NCBI GenBank assembly: GCA_023898585.1
Contig: CP060229.1
Location: 854,587-918,586, forward strand
Direction: 5' to 3'
Length of the DNA stretch: 64,000 nucleotides
DNA from: Candidatus Nomurabacteria bacterium
GTDB taxonomy: Bacteria; Patescibacteriota; Minisyncoccia; Phycocordibacterales; UBA918
Both the position numbers and the translations under genes were made by a program. Below the pieces are notes generated by a model, which was not told where the DNA came from, ran no database searches, and saw nothing but the letters and a program-made list of their open reading frames with translations. Positions 47,416 through 64,000 of the stretch are shown here, piece by piece (positions within the stretch are counted from its first letter, which is position 1; each line of letters starts with the position of its first letter).

Positions 47416-47922
47416 TTAACCTTTTATGAACAACTCAAATTCGTCCGGTGATTCACCTTCGCTGGCAGGAATTAAATTCAGTTCAATATTTCTTCCCATG
47501 AAAAGGGCAGAAAATGTAGCACTGTCTGATGCGCTTGCTTCCACTTTAAAGCGTTGCGCTGTTACAACCTGTACGCAAGTGTCCGAGTTGTTGATTACGT
47601 CGAAATTGATAACCACTCTCTCCGGGTAGGATTCTTGAATCGTTGCTTTTGCTTCTAAGAGGTCACAAGGAGTTGGAAAATTTATCTCACCAACCAAAGT
47701 ATGGACACCATCAATAAAGTAGTGCTTGGCATCAACGCGAGTAATATCAGGGTATTTGTTTGAATCTTCGATTTTTTCAATCGGGGTCACATCGACTGGT
47801 GCTTCTTGCTGTATTTCTCCCTTTTTCAAGTGTGCATATATAAACATCCCAACTACCAAAAGAGCAAATAGTGTAACCACTAAAATAATTGATTTTTGAC
47901 TCATAAGTATTGTATTAGCCAT
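47416..47922 (-). CDS. Hypothetical membrane-anchored protein
   Basis: 168 aa; N-terminal TM (IILVVTLFALLVVGMFIYAHL) and a beta-rich ectodomain. Confidence 0.4.
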   Translation of the reverse strand: MANTILMSQKSIILVVTLFALLVVGMFIYAHLKKGEIQQEAPVDVTPIEKIEDSNKYPDITRVDAKHYFIDGVHTLVGEINFPTPCDLLEAKATIQESYPERVVINFDVINNSDTCVQVVTAQRFKVEASASDSATFSALFMGRNIELNLIPASEGESPDEFELFIKG

Positions 47923-47939
47923 TAAACCTCTCCTTACAG

Positions 47940-49607
47940 TTATTGTACAATATTTACGATATCTTTGCCTACATAAATTGATATTTGAGCTTTGGATTCG
48001 GACAGTCCGCTATACGATGACAACAAGGCGCCTTCCAAGATATTACTTAGAGTCAGAGCTTGATCTTCGAGGCCTGGTTCGAAAACGATTATGGTATTGT
48101 TCTCCTTAGTTTCCAAATCGTTAGACATTGACACTATTTCATAACCCATATTTTCAAGATAGATACGTAGTGAGGCGGCAAGGCCATTGATGCCACTGCG
48201 GTTTACGATTTTTATTTGCGGAAGTTCAGGATTTGTAGCTACTTTTTCTTTTTCGCCCTGTACGAGTTTTTGGTAAGCTGTATCTTCCGAAGTTATCTTT
48301 ACCCCCTCACCTACCCCTTCAAAAGTGACTTCATATGGTCGCTCCGGTGTGGATGCAGATTTTACGTACCAAACAACAGCAGAGATAAATAAAATTGCCC
48401 CAAGCAAAGCTAGGAAGAAAAATTTGTAATTTGAGACGAAGCCGGCCACAGTTTTTAAACGATCTGTGTTTGTGGTTGTGTGTTGTAGTCGACCCCTCAA
48501 ATCTAACATGCCGGCTTCAATCGGGGCCACCACCGACAGTCTGGCCTTTTGATTATTCGAAATCATTTTACCGCTAAACTGCTGACTGGAATTAAGACCA
48601 GCCAGGTTTAGCATTTTTCTTATGTAGAGTTTAACAGCCCAGGTAAATAAATAAGCAAAGCCGAGCAGAACCAATATTACCGCGCCCATTATTTTCCAAG
48701 GTATTACCCAAAATGCAGTTTCACTGTTAACAAACTGTCTTTCCTTATCTCCGTAACCGATGGTGGCTATGGCTGTATATCTACCAATGTCTGCCATAGA
48801 CCACTTTCCAGTCCAAGTGAAAGTAAACATCCTAATGCTTTCCGGAAGCACGTTACCAAACATGGTTGAGCGGTTGATAGGGATAACTCCGCGCTCTTGA
48901 CCCCACATGTTAAGTATTTTTATATCCCCTTGTGGCTGAATATGGACATTGCCTTTGTTTTCAAAACGCAGTTCAAAAGTTGCTTCCGGTTTTTCTAAGA
49001 TGGCTGATGTGGTGCGAAATGATCTTATATTGCCAGATTCGACTACGTCGCCGGTAACACGCAAAAAGACCAGAGAGGTTACAATCTGTGACGTTTTTAC
49101 CTCAGGAACTCCGGTTTCATTTGCTGGAGGTTTTGTTCCAATCAATACAGCCGCGAAGTGACCTCCAGGCGAGGCGTCCTCAGGGACTTTGATAGTAAAA
49201 TCAAGTTTATGAGTCTGTTCAGGCGGAATAATAATTTCACTTTCCGGAATACTTATCCATTCAGCGATTGTTTGACCTTTGCTTTCTTCTTCTATTATAG
49301 GGACGAATTTACCCTGCCCATCTTCACCTTGTGGAGCAAAGTTGACAGCATTGGCAAAAATAGTAATTGGGTATGAGTTTGAGTTCACTACACGAATTGA
49401 GCTACTCCATTCCTGTCCCGGGTTGGCTGACATTTCGAATAAGGTCGGAGAAACTGTGAGCGATAAAGCACTTTGAGCAAACGTTATGGCCGGCAAAAGC
49501 GACATTAAGAAAATACCTGAAAACAAATATAGGTGCGCTTTATTGGGTTTTGTTTTTGAGATCGATATCATGTTCCTTGGGATTTTGTGTATGACCTTCA
49601 CGGACAT
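47940..49607 (-). CDS. DUF916-like cell-surface protein with internal TM pair and C-terminal LytR_C-like domain
   Basis: 555 aa; signal peptide; N-domain SLTVSPTLFEMSANPGQEWSSSIRVVNSNSYPITIFANAVNF (DUF916-like pattern SP....E....PGQ....I.V.N.S); two TM helices; C-terminal PQIKIVNRSGINGLAASLRIYLENMGYEIV... resembles LytR_C. Confidence 0.45.
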   Translation of the reverse strand: MSVKVIHKIPRNMISISKTKPNKAHLYLFSGIFLMSLLPAITFAQSALSLTVSPTLFEMSANPGQEWSSSIRVVNSNSYPITIFANAVNFAPQGEDGQGKFVPIIEEESKGQTIAEWISIPESEIIIPPEQTHKLDFTIKVPEDASPGGHFAAVLIGTKPPANETGVPEVKTSQIVTSLVFLRVTGDVVESGNIRSFRTTSAILEKPEATFELRFENKGNVHIQPQGDIKILNMWGQERGVIPINRSTMFGNVLPESIRMFTFTWTGKWSMADIGRYTAIATIGYGDKERQFVNSETAFWVIPWKIMGAVILVLLGFAYLFTWAVKLYIRKMLNLAGLNSSQQFSGKMISNNQKARLSVVAPIEAGMLDLRGRLQHTTTNTDRLKTVAGFVSNYKFFFLALLGAILFISAVVWYVKSASTPERPYEVTFEGVGEGVKITSEDTAYQKLVQGEKEKVATNPELPQIKIVNRSGINGLAASLRIYLENMGYEIVSMSNDLETKENNTIIVFEPGLEDQALTLSNILEGALLSSYSGLSESKAQISIYVGKDIVNIVQ

Positions 49608-50553
49608 ACATTAAGACTTCTTCACCGTCCTCATCATTGTAATTGTCTCGCGAAAATGTTCTTCTAAGCAATAACGTAACCAGTATTACCACGATTAAGA
49701 TACCGCCAAATATCGTTACCAGCAAATGTATCGGCATCATGTAAAAAAAAGTTGTGTCGTGCAACGACGCCCCCATGTTCTTTCCGTATTGTAATGATAC
49801 ATTGGCTTTGAATCGACCCAACTTGTCATCTATCGGCACTTCGCTGGTTAGAGTAACTGTTTCGCCCGGTTCGATCACTTTAGCTTCGCTGTTTACTTGA
49901 ACTGAGCCGATTTCTGAGCCTCTAGAATCATAAAAAATAACTTCACCACTCGGAGCAGACGGTATGTCCCCTAAGTTCTCTACCACTATACTAATTTTCT
50001 TTTTGTCATCGTCTGTGATGAATCTATCCACCAAAAACCCAGCTATCTTCATGCTGTCTGCTCGTTGATCAGCAACTGTTATTTTTACAACAACACCATC
50101 AGCTTCGCCTTTCATAGCAATATCTTCCGCGATGTCTCGATTTTTTGCCGGTACAAAACCGATAAACGCGTGGTACTCCCCAGGTTTAGCGAGTGGGTTG
50201 ATTCTGAAGGTCACCGGTATCTCCTTTTTGTCTCCCGGCAGAATTTCGATTCTGCCTCTTGTTACTTCTATCCAGCTGGTAATTGTATTGGTTCTGTCTG
50301 TCATGACCGGAGTAACAAATTCCTTAATTTCACCTTTTGTGTCCACGGAAATTTCGTTAACCGTGGCGTAGACAACATATTTTGTGAATTTGCTTTCGTT
50401 AGTCAACAAAACCGTCTCTTCGATGATGTCTCGCGGTCCGGCTACTTTATCCATCAAAAAAGGTCGGACTGAGTACTCGGACGCCGAGGAAAATGCCGGC
50501 GGGATAAAAATGGTCAGCAAGAATAAAAGTTTTATAGCAAAATGTCTTTTCAC
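49540..50553 (-). CDS. DUF916-like cell-surface protein with C-terminal TM anchor
   Basis: 337 aa; signal peptide; YSVRPFLMDKVAGPRDIIEETVLLTNESKFTKYVVYATVNEISVDTKGEIKEF (DUF916-like); a C-terminal TM (LLVTIFGGILIVVILVTLLL) and an acidic cytoplasmic tail, the same topology as Gram-positive CscA-type proteins. Confidence 0.45.
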   Translation of the reverse strand: MKRHFAIKLLFLLTIFIPPAFSSASEYSVRPFLMDKVAGPRDIIEETVLLTNESKFTKYVVYATVNEISVDTKGEIKEFVTPVMTDRTNTITSWIEVTRGRIEILPGDKKEIPVTFRINPLAKPGEYHAFIGFVPAKNRDIAEDIAMKGEADGVVVKITVADQRADSMKIAGFLVDRFITDDDKKKISIVVENLGDIPSAPSGEVIFYDSRGSEIGSVQVNSEAKVIEPGETVTLTSEVPIDDKLGRFKANVSLQYGKNMGASLHDTTFFYMMPIHLLVTIFGGILIVVILVTLLLRRTFSRDNYNDEDGEEVLMYVREGHTQNPKEHDIDLKNKTQ

Positions 50554-50569
50554 AGAAGTAATATACCAT

Positions 50570-53500
50570 TTAAAATACCGGTACCGCTACATAGGTTATT
50601 GTTGTAGTGTAGTCACCAGCCGGCTGAAGCTCTCTGGCTTTGATTCTGTATATGATGTTTTCTACGTCGACTGAGGCTATGGAACTGTACATTATTTCAT
50701 CCAATGAAGTACTGAGAGAAGCGTACGAATCAAGTGGAGCAAACCTGGCCGAGCCACCTTCGAGTGTAGCGTCGGTGGTGTGGTAGCCGGAACAACTAAT
50801 CGCACCTCCTGTGCATCCAGTAGACCAACCGACCGGTGATGCGTTTGTGCCGGTTATCGGTATGATTTGGTTTCCATAGGAATCAAGTAGTTGCTGATCC
50901 ACATACTTAAAGACCTGATAACCTTCGATCGCGTTAGTATCGACAGTAATTTGCTGTGCCACTTCAACATCGGTATCAAGAGGCAGTGACCCGAAATCGA
51001 CAGAAGTTGCCGTCGTGGTAGCGTCTGTCGTTATTCCTGCTATCGAAGTGTTGGCGTCGACACCATCGATGGTAAAAGTAAGAGAGGCACTTTCTCCAGC
51101 CAGGCTGGGGTTTGAAGTACTCGCGAAGACCACTTCGTTATTAGCAAGATCATACAGTCTGAAGTGATAAACCCTGCCGTAATTACGTTCCACATTGGTG
51201 TACTTAAGAGCAAACTCGTATTCCGTCTTATCTCCTCCATTATGTGTGAAGCCGTTGTAGTAATAAGAACTTTCATTATGAGTGCCACATCCGGCCCCGA
51301 CACTTGCCACGCAACTATCAGAATCGGAAAGTACCGCCGTTGTAATTACTTCATTGTCAACTCCTCCACCATCTTCATAACACCAAACTGAACTGGCCAC
51401 ACACGAAGATGTGGCGACAACATCTTGAGCATCACTGAAATCAGCCTGTTCAGCAAACTGTATTTTGAATCGAGCATTCACTTGGGTCAAGTTCTTTATC
51501 TCGTCCAAAGTGACTCTCAACTTAACCGAGTCGTCTTTTAAAACATTGGTTGGAGCTATGTTCTCCGGTGCTAGATCAACGGTTGGTGTTTCGTTTGTCT
51601 CATCGCCGTACCAACGCCAGGAAGTGATGACCGGTGTGTAACCTTCTGTCCTTATTTCAGGGTAATAAAGATAACCATCGAGTGGAGTGTCGTCAGACTT
51701 AATCATGCGAAAACAGTAAGTGGTTCTTTGTGCGGCTCCGTTTTGCTCAATTAACCAATCGTATTCAACATCTTCACCATCATAAACCGGATACTGATTG
51801 GCTAACGACGGGTTGTTTTCGGTGTAGCGCCCGGCACGATCTGATATTGAAATTAGCAAATCGCCTCCGGTTGGCGGATTGCCCGAAAGTGAAACACCGT
51901 CTGTGATTCCTGGCGCATCGTATCCTCTCCAAATCGCACCACTTCCAACTGAACCGACATCAGTCCATGAGACAACTGCCGAGCAAGTTGTGCTTCTAAC
52001 AGCGTATTGCAATTTTGTCGTCACCAGACCAGCGGGTAAAGTAGCATTACTTACTTTCAAACTCATTCTTATGCGGATTCTGTCACCATCAGCCAGTGGT
52101 GCATCAAGCGCCCCAATGGAAGTATTCTCTCCAAGATTGTCAATTCCCGGTGGCCATGGATCAGTCGGTTTCAAAGCGTCGTTATCCACATAAAAACGAT
52201 AGTAATTTTGTCGCACTGCGAGGTCTGCGGCTGGCCATTGAACAACCTCGGTTCGGTAAGCTAATACTTGACCGGTGTCACTACGCCACAATTCATAGGT
52301 GCTGGTCGACATTATAGTAGCTCCGGCTATCATTCTTGGATAATTATTTCCCGTTCCGGTAACGGACGTAGTCAAAAATATGGATGCGTTATTGGTTGCA
52401 TTGAGAGGCGTCGGGATGTTAACCGAGATACTAAGTGGCTCTGAACCGCCGGTTGTGTTTCCATTACTTCTTTGTACGAGCATTTCTCCGGTACTGGTCT
52501 GGGTGTTTTCGATAATCCAGGCTACAGAAACGTGATTGGAGGTAAGTAGAGCTTGCGGTTCCAAAAGAAATGACACAGCGCCAATACTCGATAGCCATAC
52601 TTCATGACCGAAGTCGGCCAAGCCAAGACTACTGGCGTATCGTTTTTGCGAATGAATGAAAGTGCGAGCTAGGCTATTAACGGCGGTTATGTTTTCAGTC
52701 TCCGTCACTCCGACCGCTGAATAAGAATGCTCAACTCTCTGCACTTTCCAATTTAGTCCCACGAATTCAACTACAGCGTAACTCACGTAACCATCATTAG
52801 CTCCGGTGTCATTACGAGTAAAGACCGGTTCATTTGTTGAAGATGACCAAGAAGCGGTCGACTGATGCCCGTAGCCTTCAGATCGGTTACCGCCGGTGTG
52901 TTGTTGTCCTGTAATAAAGACAACAATGTCGCTGTCATCAACTACGGTTGAAACTGCGGTACCTGTCCCTATAGTATCCGCCACACCATAATTTATAAGA
53001 CTTTGACTTCTAACGAAAATTTCGTTATCTCCACCCGGTGGACCAATATATTCAACAATCTCCCAAGCTACATAAGTATTATTTATAGAGTCACTGTCTC
53101 TCGCAATCGTGAAACTCGTTTCTATATTCCAAGGGTTAGAAATATAAGCGGCATAGTCGTCGGTGTTTTGGTTCCCTCCATTAGAGTCTTTACCAGCACC
53201 TGTGTAATGTGAATTCGTGATCCTAACAAAGGCACTCGTTGAGGCACTCGGTGCGACATAATCTGTACCGGCTGTTAATGTGACACCAGAGCCACTCACT
53301 ATATTGACTCCCCGCTGAATTTTAAAATCTCTTCTTGCTTCTATCGACACTTCAGCGTACTGGTCGTACTGCAAGAGAGGATCACCATTTTGAGTTGCTC
53401 TAAAACAAAAAGTAGTTTCGTAAGGCGTGTCGTTTGTAGTTGTAATGGCATACTCAAGATCAACGTACTGAGTCTGCGTTAAGGTGGTGGTAGCTGAAAA

Positions 53501-56500
53501 TGATTCAGTATCTCGAACGCCACCGTTTGAACCTAAGAAGGTTTTTCCACCCGGGTTGCTTACTCCACCGTTTGCCACAGCTATGTCAGTCGTGGTTTCA
53601 CCGTTGGTGAGATTGGGAGAATCGTACATATCCCAGGAAATTCCTCCACCGTCTGCATCGCTCCAAACCGCAATCGCTTCGCAAGTGGTAACTTTAATAC
53701 CATATTCGAGGCCGTATTTGTGAGGAATTGAGCTGGTTGAGCCCTCGTTCGAAAGACCCAGCCTCAATCGAATTGAGCTGTTTTTACCAAAATCTAGCAA
53801 AGGGGTGTCTTCCGACCCTCCGGTAGCTGAAGTGGCCCCAGTCTCGTTTCCGTCGTCGTTTCGCCAGTGATAATGTATTTGCGTAACAATTCCACCGGAG
53901 AGCGTGGTTGAGCTAGTTATGTCGAGAGCGGTTGATGGAGCGACTGAACCTCCGTCTGTGACCAAAACATCGGACGATCCTGAATTGATGATAATGTTAA
54001 GAGTTTCACCATTGTTAGCTGTGTTAGTAACATCAAGGACTGGATATACGCACATCGCCTGGGTAGTTGTGATGCCAACCGAGCCGGTAAAAGTGGCAGT
54101 TCCGTCAGGACCACTAAAAGAGGAGAAAGCACTTCCGAATTGCGAGTCAGATATGGAAAAAGTTTCGCTGGCACAATCGTATGGAGAGCTGGTATCAAGA
54201 TCGTAGTAAAGTCTGATATTTTCCACTCCACTTGTGCCGTCAACAGTGCCGTTCTCGGTAATAGTTATACTTGTTACATTTCGTGATGAATTGTTTTCTT
54301 TTATAACAAAAGCTCCACCAACATGAAAATCGGCTGTCGGTATATCGACCGTGGCGTACTGCGTGCTAGTGGCACTTACTCGTACATCAGCAGCGATCGT
54401 AGCCTTGGGGTAATTGGTATATGCTGGCAACTCTTCGCCATTGTTTGTTAGTCGAAAGCAATAGGTATTACCTTCGGTAGCTGAGGTGGAAGCGATTATT
54501 GAAAACTCCACTTCTGTCCAGTTAGTAGGTAAAAATGTCAGTGGACCAAGTGTGGAAGAAGTATCACGTAGTCCACCATTGGGGGTCAACAAAACAGTAT
54601 TCTCATTTGTCACACCACCGATACCAACACTAATGTCCGTCGAGTTCGACCCGTCTGTTAAAAATGTCGAATCATACATGTTCCAATCGTCATCAGTGGC
54701 TCCGACATCTGTCCAGCCGGTCGCAACATCACAAGTTGCGGTGTTAAGCGCGTACTCAAGTCTTAATGTGGTTGGAAAAGATGAAGTTGAACCTTCATTG
54801 GAAATACCGAGTCGCAATCTCCTTGGTGTGTCTTGCTGGAGCGCAGTCAATGAAGTGTCTTCTATCCCACCAGTCCTAGATGTGGCACCGGTTTCGTTAC
54901 CATTATCATTTCGCCAATGGAAGTGAGTTTGAGTAAGATCTGAATCGAGTATATTTGTTGTTCCGGACAAAACCTGCACCGTATCAGGAACGGCAGTCAC
55001 CGACCCTGATACAAGAACATCTGTTGCCGGATTGGAAATTTCAATTTCCATATTACTTCCGTCAACCGCCGATTTGAGAACGTCCAACACAACATAAACG
55101 CACATTGACTGTGTTGGCGAAATACTGACGGAGCCAGTGAAAGCTGAAGTTCCGTCTGCACCAGAAAAACCGTTGGCATCAGTACTACCAAATTGTGACT
55201 CAGAGCCGGAGTATGATTCGCTCGCGCAGTCGTAGGGAGAACTGGTGTCAAGGTCGTACTTCAACTTTATATTATTCAAGCCACTTGAAGCATCTACCGT
55301 ACCGTTTTCTGTAATCTGAATATTGGTGACGTTTCGTGCTTCAGTAAACTCTCGAATTACGAATTGCCCACCCACATACTGATCGGTGGTACTTGCTCTC
55401 ATTGTCGTTGCTTGTGTGCCGGAAGCAGACACAACGGTTTTAGGGGAGAGGTCAGCAACTGTATCGCCGAACACATCATCAACGTTAGCTTCAAACCATG
55501 ACAAAAATAATCTTTGAATTGACGAGTAATTAAATGAAACCCCGTACATATCACCGGAAACAGTATTGACAGGACCTTGTTCAGCGCCCCAACTGGTCAT
55601 GGCGGAGGTCGACGTTGCCCAATACACGTTAGCTGTAGATGCACTGTTAATGGTGGTACGGGCAGAATAAGCAACGTAGACGGTCTCTGTATTTTCATCA
55701 ATTGTAAGGGAAACGGATGTTAAACCACGGGTATCGTTGGTAATGATGTCGGGTAGATTTGACCAAGAACCACCTGAATATTTCGCTACTCTAATATCGT
55801 GGTCAGCGGTAGTGAAGGTGTTAGCATCAGCGATATAAGCAAGGAAAACATCTCCGGAAACTGGGCTCCTTACCGCCGACATTTGGAAATCGTAGGTTGA
55901 GCTTTCAACGGCATTCGCATCAATAGTAAGCCAGTTTGTGTCCCAACTTGTGCCATTCCATACCTTGGAACGCATGTCGTTGGCACTAATATCACGATTG
56001 ATGAGAAGTATGTTTCCACTGTCTAGAGGTAGGAGCATAGTAGCATCTTCATCAGCGTCCATGAATGTGCCATCGCCAACTTCAACCCAGTTCGTTGCTG
56101 TGCCACAGGTAGCAGAACAAGAAACAACAAAGCGATCGCCATTGTCAGACACTGATATATAAAGGATCCCGTTTGTACCTTTTGTTAGAGAATGATTAGC
56201 CGTAGCAGCACTTAGTGACATTGGACTTTGGCTCAGTACAGCACTTACAGGACTTGAGCCGAGCAACAAAGTATCACTAGACACATCAAGACGATTGTAC
56301 CAAATATCATCGTCACCCGAATCCATCGTGGCGATGTGTATGTAGGATCCAGTATCACCCGGTGTCCACTGATCGTACCAAACAACAATTGCTTGACAGT
56401 CGGTCTGTGAATCCACAAGTACCTGTGTCCCCCATGTCGCCCCACCGTCTGTAGTTTTCTTGTAGACACAAGTGCCGTTTGTTCCAGTTCCTCCGACACC

Positions 56501-56837: not shown

Positions 56838-58685
56838 CTAGTCGCCCTGGTTGATTGCTGTACTAGAAGAACCAGATTCGTTTGTTGGCTGAATAATCAA
56901 GTCGTAATCAGTCAGTTCCAAGAACTGTTGATCTTCAGTGGTTTTCAGCGATGTACTAGATAATTGCATATCATCCGGTTCATCGGCGGTAGAACTGCCG
57001 TTAGCTGAAGCCTGCTTGAGATTTAGAGTTTCAGCTTCATCAATCTCTCCGACACCCGAGGTACTAGAGCCAGTAACATTCTTTGTTCCATCGATATTGA
57101 ACTCACCTTTACTTGAAGATTTGTTTTGAATAAGAGCTCTTGTCTCACCTGTCCCATCAGCATCTGGAATCTCAACCGGATTATCAGCCGGTCGAGAAGC
57201 GATGGGCGCGGAGATTCCCGTGTTAGGATCAAATCCTTGCGTTACAACGTCACCATTGTCGTACATAGTGTCGTATACAAGCACAAAGCGTGGATTTGCT
57301 ATAACACCCCCTTCGTAGCCATTAATAGTTAAAGTCTCACCACTCTTGAGTGAATAAACCTTGGCTTCTTGCTCTTCCAAGCCTAGCACGCTCCAGAGAA
57401 CATAGCCGTCATCAATCGCCGGAGCAACATCTTGAGTCAGATTATCTGTCAATTGGTCAGTGTATGTGCCATCAAACATCATTATCTCCCAATCATTACC
57501 GTCCCAAGCTTGCCACACCACACCTTCTTTTGAGACTTTTGGCTCCATGTTGTTGGTGCGTGAAAATGTCAGCTGGTCTTCTTTTTCTTCTTTTATGTCG
57601 TATAAGATAATTTGGTACCTGCCATCTATCTGTCTTTGCCACACTACTTGCATTGATTCGGCGTTGTAGTGAGGAGAAGTATCTTCGTACTCATTGTCAG
57701 TTAATTGTTTTACTTCACCCATCGACGTACGCAAGAAAATTTCCATATTTGAATTGGCGCCCAAATCAGCGTACACCACAGCGTTCAAATCTATTCCGGT
57801 TTCCGTATTAACACTACAGTGGTAAGTTCCATCACCAATGGCAACACATGACTGACGGTTGAATTGATAATAATTATCTTCAGTAACTAGACTCTGCGCC
57901 TCAACCTGATTAATTTGTTGAGGAGCAAGATCGTCGATAATTCCAGTCAGGTCAGTATCTTGTGTTTCTGTACTATCGGCACCTGTCGAAGAAGCAGAGA
58001 AAGAAACATGGTCATCCAGTGATGAATCAGCACCAACGGTTGTTGTCATCAGGTCTGAAGAACTCGCCGATGAACTATCATTATCACTATACGAATTTGA
58101 GCTAGTACTCGATGATTCTGTTTCACCCGTATCACTATTACTCTCCGAACCAGTTTGAGTAGTTGTTGACACGCTGGTTTGAAGGAGCAACGATTTGTTA
58201 CTACTACTAGCTACTTTACTTGAAGTGGCAAAAGTTTGTTTAGTAGAAGAAGCAGTTATATTGCTAGATTGAATATCAGCTTGGACATTCGTGTTTACAA
58301 CATTGTTATTAATGGAAGTTGACGAATTTTTAGTGTTTTTTAAGAGCGAGTCTTCGATTGTTGTTGCTGGCTCATTATCGATATCGTCATCTAACGTGGA
58401 TGCTTCAATTGATTCATCTGAATCTCTTATTGAATCATTTATGGTAACAGTTTCTGCAGATTTTGATGAGGCTTGTAAAGCAACCGATTCAGCAACTGGT
58501 GAATTTTTTTCAACATCAACAGTAATAGCATCTTCACTCGCAAAGGCTTTATGAATTGGTTGAATCAAAAACGAAATAAAGAGAGTTAAAACCAAAACAA
58601 CCGAAAAGCCACTGTTAAAGGTAACAGCATAAATAAATGCGGCGGACCGCTTATTATTCTGATATAGCTTTGGTTTGTACCTCAT
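56838..58685 (-). CDS. Membrane-anchored Ser/Thr-rich protein with TolB-like beta-propeller domain
   Basis: 615 aa; N-terminal TM; ~200-aa low-complexity Ser/Thr/Asp tract; C-terminal repeated W/D-rich blades (QVVWQRQIDGRYQIILYD...VVWQAWDGNDWEIMMFDG...YVLWSV). Confidence 0.5.
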   Translation of the reverse strand: MRYKPKLYQNNKRSAAFIYAVTFNSGFSVVLVLTLFISFLIQPIHKAFASEDAITVDVEKNSPVAESVALQASSKSAETVTINDSIRDSDESIEASTLDDDIDNEPATTIEDSLLKNTKNSSTSINNNVVNTNVQADIQSSNITASSTKQTFATSSKVASSSNKSLLLQTSVSTTTQTGSESNSDTGETESSSTSSNSYSDNDSSSASSSDLMTTTVGADSSLDDHVSFSASSTGADSTETQDTDLTGIIDDLAPQQINQVEAQSLVTEDNYYQFNRQSCVAIGDGTYHCSVNTETGIDLNAVVYADLGANSNMEIFLRTSMGEVKQLTDNEYEDTSPHYNAESMQVVWQRQIDGRYQIILYDIKEEKEDQLTFSRTNNMEPKVSKEGVVWQAWDGNDWEIMMFDGTYTDQLTDNLTQDVAPAIDDGYVLWSVLGLEEQEAKVYSLKSGETLTINGYEGGVIANPRFVLVYDTMYDNGDVVTQGFDPNTGISAPIASRPADNPVEIPDADGTGETRALIQNKSSSKGEFNIDGTKNVTGSSTSGVGEIDEAETLNLKQASANGSSTADEPDDMQLSSTSLKTTEDQQFLELTDYDLIIQPTNESGSSSTAINQGD

Positions 58686-58801: not shown

Positions 58802-59548
58802 TCATTTGAAGAATAGGTCTGCCAAAATAATTGAAAAGTCTTTAAACGTCATTTTTCCGTCTCCATTAAAGTCGTAAATTTTATCCTTTGTTCCCCATGC
58901 TGACATAAACGCACTAACATCTTTCAGTGTAACTTCGCCATCGCCGTCAACGTCTGTTAAAATACTAACTTTGACATCTAAACCGATACTGGTTGGGTCT
59001 GTATTCTGGTCATATATGTATAAATTTACATTTGAACTCAAAGCTTCAGCAACTTTTACCTTGGTGCCGGCCCCATCACCAGCCAACAAAACCACATCGG
59101 ATGTTTTTACACTACTTTGCCCAGTTTGTTTAGCCTGAAGTTTTATTGTGGCGATCTTATGTTCACCTTTAAAACCTTTCTTGTATGTCCCACCTTGCAA
59201 TATTACGTGATCCGGCATTATTACTGGCTCTTTTGTCCAAATTGTTAAAACAGACTGTCCCTTATCAACCCCCAGGACTTTCACAGCAGACTCATTGAAG
59301 CGTAGTGTAATATCTATGGCATTAACCGGAACATGTGCGTACGCAAAAACATCTAAAGAAAAATTTTCACCTGCTTTGATAGCTGTCTTGGATGCTTCCA
59401 GTCTCACATATGAAACATCAGTCGAAGTAACTACCGCCGCGCCAAGCAAAGCAATTAATGTTAGTGAAGCGGAGAACATGTAGCGGACAGTTCCCTTTCG
59501 TTTTAGAGGGTTAAAGAATACTTTAACGAAACGAAGGAAAAAATCCAT
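58802..59548 (-). CDS. Cohesin-dockerin protein
   Basis: 248 aa; signal anchor; cohesin-like domain (ENFSLDVFAYAHVPVNAIDITLRFNESAVKVLGV); C-terminal type-I dockerin duplicate Ca-binding segments DVDGDGEVTLKDVSAFMSAWG and DFNGDGKMTFKDFSIILADLF. Confidence 0.65.
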   Translation of the reverse strand: MDFFLRFVKVFFNPLKRKGTVRYMFSASLTLIALLGAAVVTSTDVSYVRLEASKTAIKAGENFSLDVFAYAHVPVNAIDITLRFNESAVKVLGVDKGQSVLTIWTKEPVIMPDHVILQGGTYKKGFKGEHKIATIKLQAKQTGQSSVKTSDVVLLAGDGAGTKVKVAEALSSNVNLYIYDQNTDPTSIGLDVKVSILTDVDGDGEVTLKDVSAFMSAWGTKDKIYDFNGDGKMTFKDFSIILADLFFK

Positions 59549-59556
59549 AATTAGGG

Positions 59557-60243
59557 CTAGATGGAAATTAAATCAGAGCGAATGCTTGAAGTTTTTGTAG
59601 CAGTAACAGTGAGTGCCTCTTGGACGGAGCGAACTTCGACTAATATATCCGTGATCTCAGATGAATCTACCGCACTTCCTGCCAGCAGTGTGGAAATGAT
59701 TTGATCCTGAAGTCTTACCAAAGTAGCAAAAAGATCACTTTGCTTTTGTTCCTCATCGGCTAAACTTTGCCACAAAGAAAGTTTATACTCTTCGGAAACG
59801 CTTTCACCAAGGACAAGTTCGAGCTGATTCACATAAGACTCGAACACTTCTATTTCTCTCGCAAGTTTTGTCACCATGACCGACTTAGTGTCGGAACGAA
59901 ATTTACCACACCTGCCAAAAAGCCTTTCCAGCTCTGTAAGTTCAGCGTTATTGAGTCTGTTATTAAGCTGATTAAGCAAACTATCAAACTGCGATCTTTC
60001 AGCCACTGAACAATCGATAATGATCGATTCTGTGATTTGATCAGCACCATTTCTAGCAGTAGTCTCAGCTATGGCAACTAGCAGGGCTTGCTGATTGGCG
60101 ATAAGGAGTCTAGTGCCGAGCTCGATATCCTTAAAATGGTTGTTGATGATTACGGTAACCAATGAATACATTACGCCTATTCCAGCCACAACCACGATTA
60201 CGTTCTTTATATTTAACCAGTTAAATTTACTTGTTTTGTTCAT
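59557..60243 (-). CDS. Hypothetical membrane-anchored helical protein
   Basis: 228 aa; N-terminal TM (VIVVVAGIGVMYSLVTVII) and a predicted alpha-helical ectodomain. Confidence 0.4.
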   Translation of the reverse strand: MNKTSKFNWLNIKNVIVVVAGIGVMYSLVTVIINNHFKDIELGTRLLIANQQALLVAIAETTARNGADQITESIIIDCSVAERSQFDSLLNQLNNRLNNAELTELERLFGRCGKFRSDTKSVMVTKLAREIEVFESYVNQLELVLGESVSEEYKLSLWQSLADEEQKQSDLFATLVRLQDQIISTLLAGSAVDSSEITDILVEVRSVQEALTVTATKTSSIRSDLISI

Positions 60244-60249: not shown

Positions 60250-62025
60250 TTATGCGTTATTTTGCTTTTCAGTTAATTCTGTAACATCCCTCATTTCCTT
60301 TTCGACCTTTTCTTGTGATGATCTCAAGGCCTTATCGAGAACATCCACCATGTTTATTTCCGCTCTAGTTAACTTCTTTGTTTTGCGAGAATCTTGCAAG
60401 ATTAGTTCTTGATCCTGTAAAATCTTCTGCAACACTGAAAATTCGCGGTGCAAAATCTCAAGCGCCTCGACGGATTCTATTCGTACTTTTTTCCTGAATC
60501 TACGTACATACAATAGCATATACCATGCTCCGAGAATTAAGACAAAAGTCAATACTATGAGTGGCACGATCACCGATAAAACACTGACTATAAAGGAACC
60601 GATTCTTAAGTATCCAGGTTGTTGGACTGCGATTCTGATAGATTCAGACACATCACTTTGGGCTCCAAATTTATCTGTCGCTATAGCTGATAGTTCATAC
60701 ACACCGTTTGAAAATGTCCCTTCTGGTATGAATATAAATTCACCAACTTCGTTGCTCATTAAAACATGCTCGTTCGGCTCGGCACCTATCTTGTTAATGT
60801 AAATTTGCACAGTCGATTCAGGTCTGGTTTTACCCTTTATTACCGGTATAACCTCTTCATTAATTTCAGACGGATACTCGGTAAAGATTGGTCGGTCGAA
60901 GGCTTCTATAGTAAACGAATGAGTACCGATTATACTATTTCCAGCTTGGTCAAAGGCTTCTATTATTACCGAGTGGTAACCTGGCTCTAAACCAAAGAGC
61001 AAAATTGTACTTGAACCCGATTTATCAATGTACTCATAGGCTTCGTCTGAATCGAGCTTCACCATGAAACGATTCACTTTTGTAGTTTCATCTTCGACGT
61101 CAACCTTGAGTACTTGTTCAGGACTCGACAAATCGACTTCTTCCAAGTGCGAAATTTTTATTGCGGTTGGGCTTTTTGTGTCAACAGCTAACCGATAATG
61201 AGTTACTTTACCCCAGCCGTCTTGGTTTCTGAATTGCACATGAAAATAGGATTCTCCTTCTGGCAGATCGGTAAGTTTTATATTGTTAATCACGTTGTCG
61301 TATACTTTGGTCGGAACAGAAGTGGGAACTTCGTTTAACAAAGTCCGAACGCCGGTTACGTCTCTTGGGGTACTCCACTTCAGTTCAGCGACATTGTTTT
61401 TGTACCAGGCAGATGTGTCGGGATGAGTGACGGACGTGACACTCGGCGCTTGTGGTGTATTAGCCGGAGCGACATACTCAATCACTTCCGGTTCCGGAGC
61501 GGTGGAGGCTGCTTGAATAGTGAAAGAACCACCATTCATGGTAGTTAGAATATTTGTGCCTCGTCCGTCATTTGCCAGAACCGAACCGTTTTTAAAATTA
61601 ACTCTGGCTGTTCCTGCTCCTTTGGTGCGAAAAGTGACGTTCATGATAGTTCCGGTTTGTAGAGAAAAGCCCGAGGGTAGACCACCACTAAAACTTATCG
61701 TACCCGCACTGTTAGAGAAAGTCGGCTCCGTCACCCAGAGATTGAATATTGACCCGCTTCGATTAACCGATACCACAGACAATTCATTGGGGTTAAAAGC
61801 AAGCGTCCCTTCGGCGGCATTGACCGATTTCCCTTCAGTATTAACGATTACTTTCGTTGTAAATGTACTGTTGGCCGTATATACACCGGTGGTAGGTGAT
61901 AAAGATAGTGAAGCGGCTTCTGCAACTGAAAAGAATGGTACAAGATAAAGAACCACTAACAACATTAAGAAAAGGACTTGGTGACAAAAACGTGAATTAA
62001 TTGGGTTCGTCATAATCAGATCCAT
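60250..62025 (-). CDS. Type-I membrane protein with N-terminal cohesin domain
   Basis: 591 aa; signal peptide; cohesin-like domain (SLSLSPTTGVYTANSTFTTKVIVNTEGKSVNAAEGTLAFNPNELSVVSV...GTISFSGGLPSGF); Ig/Fn-like middle; TM near the C-terminus (FIVSVLSVIVPLIVLTFVLILGAWYMLLYV) and a charged cytoplasmic tail. Confidence 0.5.
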   Translation of the reverse strand: MDLIMTNPINSRFCHQVLFLMLLVVLYLVPFFSVAEAASLSLSPTTGVYTANSTFTTKVIVNTEGKSVNAAEGTLAFNPNELSVVSVNRSGSIFNLWVTEPTFSNSAGTISFSGGLPSGFSLQTGTIMNVTFRTKGAGTARVNFKNGSVLANDGRGTNILTTMNGGSFTIQAASTAPEPEVIEYVAPANTPQAPSVTSVTHPDTSAWYKNNVAELKWSTPRDVTGVRTLLNEVPTSVPTKVYDNVINNIKLTDLPEGESYFHVQFRNQDGWGKVTHYRLAVDTKSPTAIKISHLEEVDLSSPEQVLKVDVEDETTKVNRFMVKLDSDEAYEYIDKSGSSTILLFGLEPGYHSVIIEAFDQAGNSIIGTHSFTIEAFDRPIFTEYPSEINEEVIPVIKGKTRPESTVQIYINKIGAEPNEHVLMSNEVGEFIFIPEGTFSNGVYELSAIATDKFGAQSDVSESIRIAVQQPGYLRIGSFIVSVLSVIVPLIVLTFVLILGAWYMLLYVRRFRKKVRIESVEALEILHREFSVLQKILQDQELILQDSRKTKKLTRAEINMVDVLDKALRSSQEKVEKEMRDVTELTEKQNNA

Positions 62026-63070
62026 TAGTGTTTTCTAAAATATCGGCTCTTTCCACACTATTTTTACGCCCACGATTTCTTTTCAGCCAGTAAAATACAA
62101 CCAGTGCTGTTAGCACTACGACTATCAAAGTTGCAAAACTAATAGCTATCGTAAGCACTTGAGCGCGTGAAATAGTCCTCATCGACTCATCCGGTATAAG
62201 GGTGGCTATATATTCATTACCCGCCTTATCAACCGCTTTAACACGAATAATACTATTGAGACTTTGGTCTTTTAACACATAAGGACTACGTTCAATAACC
62301 CAGGGGGCATCCGCTCTTCCCCACTGAAACGAACCTAGTTGAGCAAGCGGTTCTTCCATCACCTCGTAGTGGTCTATTCCTGTCTGTTTGTCTGTAGTAT
62401 TGAAAACTATGAAATGATCGCCTGAAAAAGCTTTGTTATCCTTTTGGACAGAAATACTAAATTCTTCGGGTGCTATCTTATCTGCCGTTATTTGGTTCTT
62501 CCAATCATTAACTTGCGATTGACCGGCTTGTGGTTTTAGCTCAACCGTAGCTCCGTAAGTCGAGAGATCTGCCTTTGTTCCCAATCCATCATTTAAATAG
62601 GCTGTAGTTTCGTCAGAAAAAGATAGTTTTGCTAAAGCTTCCTCGGAGGAGCCTCCCCCAACTGAAAAACCGGGTGACCTGAACACAATTTCAGCAACTA
62701 CATTAGTTAACATTGGATCACCAACTATTCGTCCGCAATAACCGTTGGGTACTCCTCCGGCAAAAGTCACTGTCCTGTCTTCTTTATTTATTGTTGGGGT
62801 TTCCACCCACACACTGAATATTGATGAACCGAGTGAGACATCAACCGGAGCTATGTTGTCAGTATATGTTAAAACACCATCGATAGCATTAACGCACTCA
62901 TTATTTGCCTCATCGGTGTCTAGCCTGACAGCAACTTTGATTGAGTCACCCCGATACAATGTGCTACTGGCCGGATCGATATACAAAGACGCACCGAGAG
63001 TTACGTTCGGTAACAAGACAAACGTCACTAACATACATACAAAAAGTCGCCGAACACGAATTCTATTCAT
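61997..63070 (-). CDS. Type-I membrane protein with N-terminal cohesin domain (paralog)
   Basis: Probable start is the Met of MNRIRVRRLFVCMLVTFVLLPNVTLGA (the ORF track extends to 63121). Cohesin-like SLYIDPASSTLYRGDSIKVAVRLDTDE...LTYTDNIAPVDVSLGSSIFSVWVETPT...TVTFAGGVPNGY; C-terminal TM (VLTIAISFATLIVVVLTALVVFYWL) and a short tail. Confidence 0.5.
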   Translation of the reverse strand: MNRIRVRRLFVCMLVTFVLLPNVTLGASLYIDPASSTLYRGDSIKVAVRLDTDEANNECVNAIDGVLTYTDNIAPVDVSLGSSIFSVWVETPTINKEDRTVTFAGGVPNGYCGRIVGDPMLTNVVAEIVFRSPGFSVGGGSSEEALAKLSFSDETTAYLNDGLGTKADLSTYGATVELKPQAGQSQVNDWKNQITADKIAPEEFSISVQKDNKAFSGDHFIVFNTTDKQTGIDHYEVMEEPLAQLGSFQWGRADAPWVIERSPYVLKDQSLNSIIRVKAVDKAGNEYIATLIPDESMRTISRAQVLTIAISFATLIVVVLTALVVFYWLKRNRGRKNSVERADILENTNGSDYDEPN

Positions 63071-63227
63071 GACAAAATTATAACAAGCACTTGTAAAAAA
63101 ATAAGTGGCTGTACACAACACTGAGAAGATAAGAGTCGCATAGACAAATTAGCAAAACAAAAAACCCTTCTCGTGGTGGGAGATAGGGCTTTTTGTTTTT
63201 AACTCCAAGCTTAGAGTCAGTATTCGA

Positions 63228-64000
63228 CTAGAATACTGGGGTTGCTACGTATGTCAGGGTAGCTGTGTAATCATCAGCTGCCTCTTGTAAGGCGCTGATT
63301 TGAACTTTGTAACCAACTCTGGTTGTACCGACACCTTGGGTTGTACCATTGGTTGGTCCGGTATGACGGAATATTTCAACCGGTGTGGTGGAAGCCGAAA
63401 GGTAACGGTCACCACCTCCTCCAACGTTGAATGGATTCGTCAAACCTGAGGTAAGAGCACCATCATCTGAGGTAATTCCCCAGTGACCGTATGTTTCCTC
63501 AGAACCGAGAACCGGTGTTGGACCTTCCCACGCAACCGGTGTTGTATCGTAATTTCCATTACGGAAACCATCGATATCTGCACCAGTGGCTGAAACGAGT
63601 TGACCATCGGCGGTCACTGTAACAACAAAACCATTCTTAGCGTTGGTGTTTACAGTCAAGTCCTGAGCTGTTGTGCTGGCGCTTCCATTTGTCAAAACGC
63701 CAAACGGAATCGTCGTCGCAGTCGTTGGACCGTCAGTTATATCAGCTGTGTTAACTGTTGCTCCACCGGATACCCCCGCTACAGAAAAGGTAAAGAGTGT
63801 ATCTACCGATGCGGTAACAGTGACGGAATCAACTATCGCTACACGAGTGGCACCTGAATCAGAGGCACCAGCAGTGACGGCTATTTCGTATGAACCGACG
63901 GCTGGGTTTGTTAATTGGTTTACACCAGGACCGGAATCACCACTGAAGGTAGCATTGGTACCAATCTTAACGGTAGTTGTACCGTTAGCTGGTATGGATG
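63228..64000 (-). CDS. C-terminal part of a large surface protein (gene continues beyond window end) sharing the C-terminal domain of the giant protein
   Basis: The ORF-track entry 63228-63695 starts at a TTG only because the upstream reading frame is open to the window edge (manual translation gives ...SVTVTASVDTLFTFSVAGVSGGATVNTADITDGPTTATTIPFGVLTNGS... with no stop). The C-terminal ~150 aa align with the giant protein (LTVNTNAKNGF / ITVDTNAIEGY; PVAWEG / PVGWSTG; ...DDYTATLTYVATPVF / ...GDYTTTITYVAVPVF). Confidence 0.5.
   Translation of the reverse strand, partial: SIPANGTTTVKIGTNATFSGDSGPGVNQLTNPAVGSYEIAVTAGASDSGATRVAIVDSVTVTASVDTLFTFSVAGVSGGATVNTADITDGPTTATTIPFGVLTNGSASTTAQDLTVNTNAKNGFVVTVTADGQLVSATGADIDGFRNGNYDTTPVAWEGPTPVLGSEETYGHWGITSDDGALTSGLTNPFNVGGGGDRYLSASTTPVEIFRHTGPTNGTTQGVGTTRVGYKVQISALQEAADDYTATLTYVATPVF

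What the first reader, a model, noticed from the sequence alone, without database searches (positions are those of the whole stretch)
47416..64000. 16.5-kb minus-strand cell-surface island: cohesin/dockerin proteins, DUF916-like anchors and giant proteins with a shared C-terminal domain
Eleven consecutive co-directional genes. Three carry cohesin domains: one also has a dockerin, and two are type-I membrane proteins with cytoplasmic tails. Alongside them are two DUF916-like proteins with CscA-like topology, a 2045-aa BNR/repeat-module protein and a Ser/Thr-rich beta-propeller protein. At least two large proteins end in the same ~150-aa C-terminal domain. This combines the logic of a cellulosome-like scaffold (cohesin-dockerin pairing, membrane-anchored cohesins) with that of Gram-positive WxL/Csc surface complexes (DUF916 anchors plus large proteins sharing a C-terminal non-covalent anchoring domain). 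In a small-genome, probably episymbiotic, CPR-like organism such a locus is a strong candidate for a host-attachment or surface-assembly system that has not been characterised as a unit.
Basis: partly seen in the sequence, partly recalled or inferred. Interest (0 to 1): 0.8.

Follow-up and report, generated by a model that had tools for sequence, protein, structure and literature searches.

The report
Conserved surface-protein island of CPR bacteria
This is the downstream part of a large, strictly conserved gene cluster of ultra-small (CPR/Patescibacteria) bacteria; it probably builds a multi-protein cell-surface structure from membrane anchors related to Gram-positive WxL-interacting proteins, cohesin-dockerin connectors and a new, uncatalogued C-terminal domain, and it is a good candidate for how these cells attach to other cells.

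Summary
The observation largely holds. Ten co-directional minus-strand genes (g1-g10, 47416-64000) encode secreted or membrane-anchored proteins.

**Confirmed:**
- g2 passes Pfam thresholds for WxLIP_PGBD (DUF916) and LytR_C; g3 is its paralogue.
- g6 has a dockerin and a cohesin-like module; the g8 N-domain passes the Pfam cohesin threshold; g9 is a g8 paralogue.
- The 2045/2058-aa g4 and g10 share a ~190-aa C-terminal domain.

**Corrections:**
- g10 is not large. It is a 390-aa protein cut by the window end, the most conserved island gene in the one full-length comparison, and it has its own conserved terminator.
- The shared domain is not a Pfam WxL domain. It is an unannotated family (about 2,000 clusters at 50% identity) whose confident model resembles donor-strand pilins and TasA.
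- BNR is sub-threshold.
- A redoxin gene (46837-47406) belongs to the island, which also continues beyond base 64000.

Gene order is conserved in every related locus with enough flank (g9 43/43 to g4 20/20).

**Best reading (confidence 0.6):** a WxL-cluster-like surface display system combined with cohesin-dockerin scaffolding. A donor-strand fibre is the main rival. New variant of a known kind; function is inferred.

The parts
46837..47406 (-). Membrane-anchored thioredoxin-fold protein (redoxin, TlpA/ResA-like).
   Evidence: Pfam Redoxin 78 bits and AhpC-TSA 65 bits. It starts 9 nt after g1. A redoxin or thioredoxin gene follows g2/g1 in L004/L008, L091 and L092.
47416..47922 (-). g1: 168-aa protein with an N-terminal TM anchor and an ectodomain of about 130 aa of unknown family.
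   Evidence: Hydropathy. No Pfam or NCBIfam hit. 36% identical orthologue in L004/L008; absent in L091.
47940..49607 (-). g2: WxLIP-like membrane protein. Probable start is at 49505 (521 aa). Order of parts: signal peptide; two Ig-like domains homologous to DUF916-DUF3324 (about 48690-49484); TM; cytoplasmic loop; TM; extracellular LytR_C domain (47961-48218).
   Evidence: Pfam WxLIP_PGBD 29.8 bits and LytR_C 37.7 bits. hhalign against Firmicutes WxLIP gives 93.9%, E 1.5e-7. The family profile hits PDB entry 9i1y (EfmWxLIP1) only weakly, E 0.54. TMs. 868 homologues at 47-61% identity, named from Parcubacteria.
49540..50553 (-). g3: second WxLIP-like protein (337 aa): signal peptide, two Ig-like domains, C-terminal TM and a short acidic tail (CscA-like topology).
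   Evidence: BLASTP to g2 1e-11. The g2-family ectodomain HMM gives 8e-20. TM at residues 277-295. No direct Pfam hit.
50570..56746 (-). g4: giant secreted protein (2058 aa, or 2045 aa from the M14 start). N-terminal region with one Asp-box; two ~355-aa repeat modules (54389-55456 and 53336-54403) plus weaker copies; shared C-terminal domain at 50573-51082.
   Evidence: Repeats. BNR_4 only 14.2 bits. C-domain matches g10 at 32% over 190 aa. 66-77% identical to orthologues over the aligned length.
56838..58685 (-). g5: 615-aa secreted or anchored protein with Ser/Thr-rich linkers flanking a probable beta-propeller.
   Evidence: TIGR04275 beta-propeller repeat 30.7 bits (below cut-off) and TolB 20.5 bits. 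N-terminal hydrophobic segment. Present in 26/26 related loci.
58802..59548 (-). g6: adaptor protein with a signal or anchor segment, a cohesin-like module (59075-59389) and a type-I-like dockerin with two Ca-binding loops (58826-58957).
   Evidence: Dockerin_1 25.3 bits and Cohesin 19.7 bits. Orthologues give Cohesin up to 27 bits; four of the five give Dockerin_1 above cut-off. Loops DVDGDGEVTLKD and DFNGDGKMTFKD are visible in the sequence.
59557..60243 (-). g7: 228-aa protein with an N-terminal TM anchor and a helix-rich, probably coiled-coil, ectodomain. Family unknown.
   Evidence: Hydropathy. No family hit. Present in 32/32 related loci.
60250..62025 (-). g8: type-I membrane protein: signal peptide, cohesin domain (61519-61878), Ig-like domains including Big_13 (60643-60852), TM, and a charged cytoplasmic tail of about 95 aa.
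   Evidence: Cohesin 28.4 bits for the N-domain alone. Big_13 31-38 bits. TMs. Present in 35/36 related loci.
61997..63121 (-). g9: type-I membrane protein, paralogue of g8, with a cohesin-like N-domain, a TM and a short tail. Probable start is at 63070 (357 aa).
   Evidence: BLASTP to g8 8e-14. hhalign of the two families 99.7%. No direct Pfam cohesin hit in the window copy or in 5 orthologues. Present in 43/43 related loci.
63153..63216 (-). Conserved palindrome CTCTAAGCTTGGAG (63203-63216) followed by an intrinsic terminator (63153-63194), directly after the g10 stop codon.
   Evidence: RNA fold -18.4 kcal/mol with a U-tract. The same two elements occur in L006, L008, L009, L016 and L022, and at the ends of many ~1.3-kb contigs. 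The simple consensus scan missed it, probably because the stem is bulged (my guess).
63228..64000 (-). g10: C-terminal 256 aa of a 390-aa secreted protein (full sequence P0121). N-terminal Ig-like domain, then the shared C-terminal domain (63231-63830), ending in the near-invariant TYVATPVF.

Best explanation
The region is the distal two-thirds of a conserved cell-surface assembly locus of Paceibacteria-type CPR bacteria.

**Shown**
- All products are secreted or membrane-anchored.
- g2 and g3 are homologues of the Gram-positive WxL-interacting protein (two Ig-like domains plus a TM).
- g10 (small, the best conserved of the island proteins against L008, own terminator) and g4 (giant, with repeat modules) carry the same C-terminal beta-sandwich domain.
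- g6, g8 and g9 carry cohesin-type modules, and g6 also carries a dockerin.
- The gene order is fixed across the clade.

**Inferred mechanism**
- The membrane-anchored WxLIP-like proteins hold the shared C-domain of g10 and g4 at the cell surface by beta-strand complementation, as WxLIP does with WxL domains. The extra LytR_C domain of g2 may contact the wall.
- g10 forms the abundant base or coat, and g4 is the long adhesive or enzymatic passenger.
- The type-I membrane cohesin proteins g8 and g9 dock the dockerin of g6. The dockerin protein encoded just upstream of g10 in relatives would dock either there or on g6's own cohesin.
- The membrane-anchored redoxin may oxidise the many conserved cysteines of g4.

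The assembled structure would mediate contact with other cells or surfaces.
For: - **Domain assignments:**
- **WxLIP homology:** it spans both Ig domains (hhalign 93.9%, E 1.5e-7). A third WxLIP-like paralogue lies upstream in relatives (hhalign 94.8%).
- **Shared C-domain:** found only in g10 and g4.
- **Modular use of the g10 module:** in other members it sits C-terminal to varied passengers (Laminin_G_3, LVIVD, Flg_new, Y_Y_Y, CarboxypepD_reg), as an anchoring module would.
- **Recurrent pairing with WxLIP-like genes in a different arrangement:** P0354 fuses a WxLIP-like ectodomain plus TM to a g10 module. Its locus L093 also holds a 996-aa protein ending in the C-domain, a 312-aa WxLIP-like protein and a 392-aa small C-domain protein.
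- **Synteny:** 20/20 to 43/43.
- **Operon structure:** g4-g3-g2-g1-redoxin are separated by 9-34 nt.
- **Published model:** WxL clusters consist of a small WxL, a large WxL and a WxLIP, with a WxLIP strand completing the WxL sandwich (PMC10599100, PMC9772566). A PDB entry of WxLIP bound to a long WxL exists (9i25, listed).
- **g10 as the major component:**
  - 69% identity to its UBA3466 (L008) orthologue, against 36-66% for the other island proteins.
  - Mature pI about 4 and a T/G/A/V-rich composition.
  - A conserved terminator after the gene.
Against:
- The C-domain is not a WxL domain by Pfam or HH-suite. No WxL chain appeared among its top structural neighbours, although the PDB holds one.
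- The AF2 monomer of the C-domain is a confident, apparently complete fold, so a need for a complementing strand is not evident.
- No dockerin-bearing enzymes were seen in the window.
- g9's cohesin rests on transitive homology only.
- Neither expression nor localisation has been measured.
Confidence: 0.6

Rival explanations
1. g10 is the major subunit of a surface fibre or pilus that polymerises by donor-strand exchange, like TasA, archaeal threads and bundling pili, or chaperone-usher pili. g4 joins the fibre through the same pilin-like C-domain as a tip or side adhesin. The WxLIP-like proteins act as membrane-bound nucleators or anchors, in the way TapA does for TasA.
For: - Foldseek's top hit is the TasA fibre (E 6.5e-4, probability 0.97).
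- g10 is the best-conserved island gene in the L008 comparison and has its own terminator, as major subunit genes often do.
- g4 has an adhesin-like layout: a large N-terminal part and a C-terminal pilin-like domain.
- TLP-1 fibrils were recovered from 0.22-um pond-water filtrate and are of unknown origin (PMC11494351).
Against: - The AF2 monomer appears complete at pLDDT 94 without a free N-terminal extension on the C-domain.
- No SipW-type peptidase, usher or PapD-like chaperone was detected in the island by Pfam.
- There is no sequence similarity to any solved pilin.
Confidence: 0.25
2. g10 is an S-layer or coat protein forming a two-dimensional lattice. The neighbouring genes are a collection of unrelated envelope proteins kept together by operon history rather than one machine.
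For: - g10 is acidic, Thr/Gly/Ala/Val-rich and nearly Cys-free.
- It is very conserved and probably highly expressed.
- From my own knowledge, CPR cells have been reported to carry S-layers.
Against: - Strict synteny of more than 15 genes across loci whose g10 is 51-75% identical to the query.
- The C-domain is shared with g4.
- The g10 module pairs with, and in one case is fused to, WxLIP-like proteins in a different locus arrangement. This argues for functional coupling.
Confidence: 0.1
3. It is a cellulosome-like polysaccharide-degrading complex, as originally proposed for Csc clusters and for cohesin-dockerin systems.
For: Cohesin and dockerin modules. A possible BNR/sialidase-like N-terminus in g4. 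The Csc precedent (PMC1534035).
Against: - No glycoside hydrolase, CBM or other carbohydrate-active family reached threshold in any island protein.
- Only one dockerin is present in the window.
Confidence: 0.05

Closest known systems
WxL / Csc cell-surface clusters of Lactobacillales and Bacillales (small WxL, large WxL, WxLIP = DUF916-DUF3324-TM)
   Same: - g2 and g3, plus a third paralogue upstream in relatives, are true homologues of WxLIP (Pfam above threshold; hhalign about 94%).
- One small and one large secreted protein share a C-terminal ~190-aa beta-rich domain.
- The WxLIP-like genes directly follow the large protein gene.
- Three landmark motifs of the shared domain align in the same order as those of WxL (FG; G-aromatic-x-hydrophobic; Y-x-x-T-L-T-aromatic...P).
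   Different: - The shared domain fails the Pfam WxL model, and hhalign gives 2.7-3.4%.
- Trp is replaced by Phe or Tyr.
- No LPXTG protein and no sortase in the locus.
- g2 has an extra TM and a LytR_C domain.
- Host phylum is Patescibacteria, not Bacillota.
- Cohesin-dockerin genes are interleaved; the upstream part of the cluster in relatives adds a MacB-type ABC transporter.
Non-cellulosomal cohesin-dockerin systems and anchoring scaffoldins
   Same: Cohesin modules sit on membrane-anchored proteins (g8, g9). An adaptor (g6) carries both a cohesin and a dockerin. The dockerin has two Ca-binding loops.
   Different: - No dockerin-bearing enzymes or CBMs were seen.
- Anchoring is by a C-terminal TM helix with a cytoplasmic tail, rather than by SLH domains or sortase.
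- Cohesin scores lie near the Pfam threshold.
Donor-strand-exchange fibres (TasA/TapA, archaeal threads and bundling pili, chaperone-usher pilins, TLP-1 environmental fibrils)
   Same: The predicted fold of the shared C-domain is closest to these subunits. The layout of a giant protein with a C-terminal pilin-like domain resembles that of tip adhesins.
   Different: - No sequence similarity.
- No recognisable donor strand, SipW peptidase, chaperone or usher.
- Polymerisation has not been shown.

Membership tests
WxL/Csc cluster | A WxLIP protein: DUF916 (PGBD) + DUF3324 (HBD) + C-terminal TM | tested here: met
   g2 gives Pfam WxLIP_PGBD 29.8 bits against a cut-off of 27.3. hhalign with Firmicutes WxLIP gives 93.9% over 233 columns covering both domains. 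TM helices in g2 and g3. DUF3324 itself is not hit by Pfam.
WxL/Csc cluster | At least two proteins with a Pfam WxL domain (two Trp-x-Leu motifs) | tested here: not met
   No Pfam family, including WxL, matched g4C or g10C at E<=10, and WxL was not among the families listed for 134 diverse family members at E<=1. hhalign of the WxL alignment against the C-domain alignment gives 3.4% and 2.7%. The corresponding positions read GF/YxV and TYVA, not WxL.
WxL/Csc cluster | Small and large secreted proteins sharing the C-terminal domain, clustered with WxLIP | tested here: met
   g10 (390 aa) and g4 (2058 aa) share the domain. They are adjacent to g3 and g2. The same pairing occurs in L093.
WxL/Csc cluster | LPXTG protein (CscD) or sortase in the cluster (frequent, not obligatory) | tested here: not met
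   No LPxT[GAN] motif in any island protein. No sortase hit by Pfam.
WxL/Csc cluster | Peptidoglycan binding of the shared domain | not testable with these tools
   Requires a binding assay.
Cohesin-dockerin system | Cohesin domain (PF00963) | tested here: met
   g8 N-domain 28.4 bits. g6 orthologues reach 27 bits, while the window copy scores 19.7. g9 qualifies only through homology to g8.
Cohesin-dockerin system | Dockerin with duplicated Ca-binding loop-helix motif (PF00404) | tested here: met
   g6 Dockerin_1 25.3 bits against a cut-off of 22.9. Four of five orthologues are above cut-off. Two DxDxDG-type loops are visible in the sequence.
Cohesin-dockerin system | Specific cohesin-dockerin binding | not testable with these tools
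   No multimer prediction was available.
Cellulosome | Dockerin-bearing carbohydrate-active enzymes and a CBM-bearing scaffoldin | tested here: not met
   No GH, CE, PL or CBM family reaches threshold in the island.
Donor-strand-exchange pilus / TasA-like fibre | Pilin-type Ig-like fold | tested here: inconclusive
   [not shown]
Donor-strand-exchange pilus / TasA-like fibre | Free donor strand and an incomplete acceptor groove | tested here: inconclusive
   The monomer model is confident and looks complete. Coordinates could not be inspected and no oligomer model was made.
Donor-strand-exchange pilus / TasA-like fibre | Dedicated chaperone/usher or SipW-type signal peptidase in the locus | tested here: not met
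   No such Pfam or NCBIfam hit in g1-g10.
LCP (LytR-Cps2A-Psr) enzymes | LCP catalytic domain | tested here: not met
   g2 carries only the accessory LytR_C domain.

The most novel reading that the evidence does not exclude
g10 and its ~2,000-cluster family are subunits of a previously unrecognised class of donor-strand-assembled surface fibre of CPR bacteria. The fibre would be nucleated and anchored by WxLIP-type membrane proteins and tipped or decorated by giant proteins such as g4. The same principle (WxLIP as strand donor) would then also underlie the Gram-positive WxL clusters. Such fibres could be among the pili-like appendages seen on CPR cells and among the unassigned fibrils recovered from 0.22-um filtrates.
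Probability: 0.25. Interest if true: 0.85.

Novelty: new variant of a known kind. Interest (0 to 1): 0.66.

Why it matters
**The open question.** How Parcubacteria/Paceibacteria-type CPR cells build their envelope and attach to hosts is largely unknown. To my knowledge, type IV pili are the only attachment structure studied so far.

**What this locus offers.**
- It is present with fixed gene order in all related loci examined.
- It encodes one of the best-conserved secreted proteins of the clade.
- It defines a large domain family that Pfam does not cover.
- It extends WxLIP (DUF916/DUF3324) proteins, so far treated as a Lactobacillales/Bacillales feature, to a distant phylum where they pair with a different partner domain.

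**What follows.** The partners are concrete and testable: g2/g3 with the C-domains of g10 and g4, and the g6 dockerin with the g8/g9 cohesins. g10 is an obvious target for antibodies, cryo-ET and metaproteomics in enrichment cultures.

Tried and rejected
**Searches that found nothing or little**
- Exact look-up of the 555-aa form of g2 found nothing; the recorded gene starts 34 codons later (P0001).
- Sequence searches of the g2, g8 and g10 families against the PDB gave nothing significant.
- NCBIfam added only weak beta-propeller hits for g5.
- The genome-contig scan with a g4 alignment returned one locus only, because the peptide patterns chosen were too specific.
- The third homologue search (g4 C-domain) returned mostly contig-end fragments and was uninformative.
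- Literature searches found no paper linking DUF916/WxL or cohesin-dockerin clusters with CPR bacteria.

- The AFDB fold libraries were unavailable.
- The first AF2 run on full-length g10 with a shallow alignment modelled the C-domain poorly (pLDDT 55-65). It was rerun on the domain alone with 134 diverse sequences.
- The simple terminator scan missed the g10 terminator.

**Ideas tested and dropped**
- The upstream 627-aa protein of relatives carrying the same C-domain: hhalign 1.2%.
- The cohesin-type proteins g8/g9 being related to WxLIP: hhalign 1-10%. The g6-versus-g8 result of that call was discarded because the automatically gathered g6 set was contaminated with g8 ORFs.
- The C-domain being a divergent WxL domain: not supported statistically.

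Full report
**1. What is in the sequence**

Between 47416 and 64000 the minus strand carries ten ORFs, called g1 to g10 here.
- g10 runs off the window end. Its full form is the 390-aa protein P0121, 100% identical over the 256 residues present.
- Gaps are short (-29 to 34 nt) within g9-g8-g7-g6 and within g4-g3-g2-g1. They are longer after g10 (157 nt), g6 (116 nt) and g5 (130 nt).
- A further co-directional gene, a membrane-anchored redoxin (46837-47406; Pfam Redoxin 78 bits), starts 9 nt after g1.
- Hydropathy shows N-terminal signal or anchor segments in g1, g2, g5, g6, g7, g8 and g9. It shows C-terminal TM helices in g3, g8 and g9, and two internal TMs in g2.
- By eye, g3 and g4 also start with signal-peptide-like segments.

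**2. Domain checks**

*g2 and g3 (DUF916-like)*
- g2 passes Pfam thresholds for WxLIP_PGBD (DUF916; 29.8 against 27.3 bits) and LytR_C (37.7 against 22.2 bits).
- I took WxLIP proteins from annotated Enterococcus, Lactiplantibacillus and Listeria plasmids. They align with the g2 family at hhalign probability 93.9%, E 1.5e-7, over 233 columns. This covers both Ig-like domains, not only DUF916.
- g3 is a paralogue (BLASTP 1e-11; g2-family HMM 8e-20) with CscA-like topology.

*g6, g8 and g9 (cohesin and dockerin)*
- g6 has a dockerin above threshold (25.3 bits) and a cohesin just below it (19.7 bits). Five orthologues score 17-27 bits for cohesin (two above cut-off), and four of them pass for dockerin.
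- The g8 N-domain scanned alone passes the cohesin threshold (28.4 bits). Its membrane-proximal part has Big_13.
- g9 gives no direct cohesin hit, but it is clearly homologous to g8.

*g4 and g5*
- g4 has two ~355-aa repeat modules and weaker copies.
- Its N-terminus gives only a sub-threshold BNR_4 match and one clear Asp-box.
- g5 is Ser/Thr-rich with weak beta-propeller hits.

**3. The shared C-terminal domain**

*Distribution and family*
- g4 and g10 share about 190 C-terminal residues (32% identity, E 3e-11). A family HMM finds this domain in no other ORF of the window.
- g10 belongs to a large family: 2132 clusters at 90% identity and 2086 representatives at 50% identity, of which 351 have E<=1e-30.
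- No Pfam family covers it in 134 diverse members.
- g10 is acidic (mature pI about 4), rich in Thr, Gly, Ala and Val, and ends in a near-invariant TYVATPVF.

*Conservation and transcription signals*
- Against the UBA3466 genome, g10 is 69% identical while the other island proteins are 36-66% identical.
- Right after its stop codon lie a palindrome and a canonical intrinsic terminator. Both are conserved in five relatives.
- Many ~1.3-1.4-kb public contigs hold g10 alone, with about 180-195 nt upstream, and end in these hairpins. I read this as a sign of a separate, abundant transcript. It is an inference, because the sample types could not be checked.

*Predicted structure*
- With 134 diverse sequences, the C-domain alone reached pLDDT 94.4 and pTM 0.89.
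  - Caf1, PapA, TasA and CanX
- Foldseek ranks the TasA fibre first (E 6.5e-4, probability 0.97, TM about 0.3).
- These scores show a pilin-like Ig sandwich. They do not establish homology.

**4. Is it a WxL domain?**

[quoted passage not shown] A WxLIP hairpin is predicted to complete the WxL sandwich (PMC10599100, PMC9772566).

The architecture here is parallel, so I tested membership directly.
- I collected 16 WxL domains from annotated plasmids.
- Profile-profile comparison with the C-domain alignment gives only 3.4% and 2.7% probability.
- A greedy alignment is colinear for three landmark motifs:
  - FG
  - G-W-x-L against G-F/Y-x-V
  - Y-x-x-T-L-T-W-x-L...P against Y-T-A-T-L-T-Y-V-A-T-P

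Membership in the WxL family is therefore not met. Remote homology remains possible but unproven.

**5. Functional coupling of WxLIP-like proteins and the C-domain**

- In other family members the g10 module sits C-terminal to varied passenger domains (Laminin_G_3, LVIVD propeller, Flg_new, Y_Y_Y, CarboxypepD_reg). This is the behaviour of an anchoring or assembly module.
- One representative, P0354, is a fusion of a WxLIP-like ectodomain, a TM, a second hydrophobic segment and a g10 module. The fusion is topologically feasible.
- Its locus L093 holds, in a different order, a 996-aa protein ending in the C-domain, the fusion, a 312-aa WxLIP-like protein and a 392-aa small C-domain protein.
- In relatives of the window a third WxLIP-like gene lies upstream (hhalign 94.8% to the g2 family).

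**6. Conservation of the locus**

*Organism.* The closest relatives are Patescibacteria MAGs named Ca. Nomurabacteria, Ca. Kaiserbacteria, Ca. Parcubacteria and UBA3466. One is a complete 951,832-bp genome (CP060228.1).

*Downstream of g10.* A metagenome scan with the g10 family gave 80 loci. Counting only loci with enough flank, on the same strand and in the same order:

| Gene | Loci with the gene / loci with enough flank |
|---|---|
| g9 | 43/43 |
| g8 | 35/36 |
| g7 | 32/32 |
| g6 | 31/31 |
| g5 | 26/26 |
| g4 | 20/20 |

*Downstream of g4.* The run g4-g3-g2-(g1)-redoxin is present in all three independent relatives examined: UBA3466 (held as L004 and L008), L091 and L092.

*Upstream of g10, beyond the window.* Relatives carry the following:
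- a dockerin protein (37/40)
- the third WxLIP-like protein (32/36)
- a 627-aa protein (30/32)
- a MacB-type ABC transporter (25/27 and 22/23, 82-85% identity, the best conserved genes)
- an fn3 protein (17/20)
- a 7,750-8,128-aa giant protein in the two relatives where that far upstream region was seen (L006/L007, L009)

The window therefore shows only the distal part of a much larger conserved cluster. L085 and L089 are rearranged exceptions.

**7. Interpretation**

- **Best supported (0.6):** a surface display and assembly system. WxLIP-like membrane proteins hold the proteins that carry the shared C-domain. g10 is the abundant base and g4 the long passenger. Membrane-anchored cohesin proteins g8 and g9 dock the dockerin adaptor g6 and, in relatives, the upstream dockerin protein. 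The shown steps are domain identities, homologies, topology, co-occurrence and synteny. The inferred steps are all physical interactions, wall binding by LytR_C, disulfide formation by the redoxin, and a role in cell-cell contact.
- **Main rival (0.25):** g10 polymerises by donor-strand exchange into a fibre, with g2 and g3 as TapA-like nucleators. The fold neighbours and the major-subunit features favour it. The apparently complete monomer model and the absence of chaperone, usher or SipW genes count against it.
- **S-layer reading (0.1) and cellulosome-like enzymatic reading (0.05):** less likely, because the genes are tightly coupled and no carbohydrate-active domains were found.

**8. Novelty**

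No paper in the searchable library links DUF916/WxL or cohesin-dockerin clusters to CPR bacteria.

The locus combines known module types (WxLIP, cohesin, dockerin) with an uncatalogued partner domain, in a phylum far from where WxL clusters are known. I therefore rate it a new variant of a known kind. The fibre reading would move it towards a new class of appendage.

Noticed in passing
window 63153-63216 (minus strand); also L006, L008, L009, L016, L022: A palindrome CTCYAAGCTTGGAG and a strong intrinsic terminator directly follow the g10 stop codon and are conserved across genera. Many ~1.3-1.4-kb public contigs carry g10 alone with about 180-195 nt of upstream sequence and end inside these hairpins. 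This suggests an abundant monocistronic transcript, or an assembly break at the palindrome.
   Followed up: partly
beyond window end (>64000); L006, L009, L011-L090: In relatives the cluster continues upstream of g10 with a dockerin protein, a third WxLIP-like protein, a 627-aa protein, a MacB-type ABC transporter (82-85% identity, the most conserved genes of the cluster), an fn3 protein and a 7,750-8,128-aa giant protein (Pentaxin, Laminin_G_3, DUF2341).
   Followed up: partly
L093 8001-10001 (protein P0354): A single ORF fuses a WxLIP-like ectodomain plus TM to a g10-like module. The same locus has further WxLIP-like and C-domain genes in a different order, next to a type IV pilin-like gene and a two-component system.
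   Followed up: partly
[not shown]
   Followed up: partly
window 22550-25339 (minus strand): The leucyl-tRNA synthetase ORF (929 aa) carries a NUDIX domain (residues 378-478, 56.5 bits) inserted after the editing domain.
   Followed up: no
window 30771-35584 (plus strand): A HlyD-type membrane-fusion protein and an AcrB-type RND transporter (574 bits). I would expect this organism to be monoderm, so an RND pair is unexpected.
   Followed up: no
window 45988-46668 (minus strand): A 226-aa protein matches Pfam Autoind_synth (LuxI-type autoinducer synthase; 28.6 bits, cut-off 24). It lies just downstream of the island. It is also present in L001-L003 (near-identical contigs) but not at this position in L004, L091 or L092, which have an AI-2E-family transporter there.
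   Followed up: no
L004, L091, L092 and L096: An AI-2E family transporter gene lies next to the cluster in three CPR relatives and also next to the Listeria innocua WxL cluster. This may be coincidence.
   Followed up: no
window 63071-63100 (minus strand): A perfect TATAAT lies 7 nt upstream of the probable g9 ATG (63070). This hints at a very short leader or a leaderless transcript for g9-g6.
   Followed up: no
PMC10936435: In archaea-attached Paceibacteria, proteins annotated with 'PGBD' peptidoglycan-binding domains were among the five most highly expressed secreted proteins. Whether these are g2-type WxLIP_PGBD proteins was not checked.
   Followed up: no
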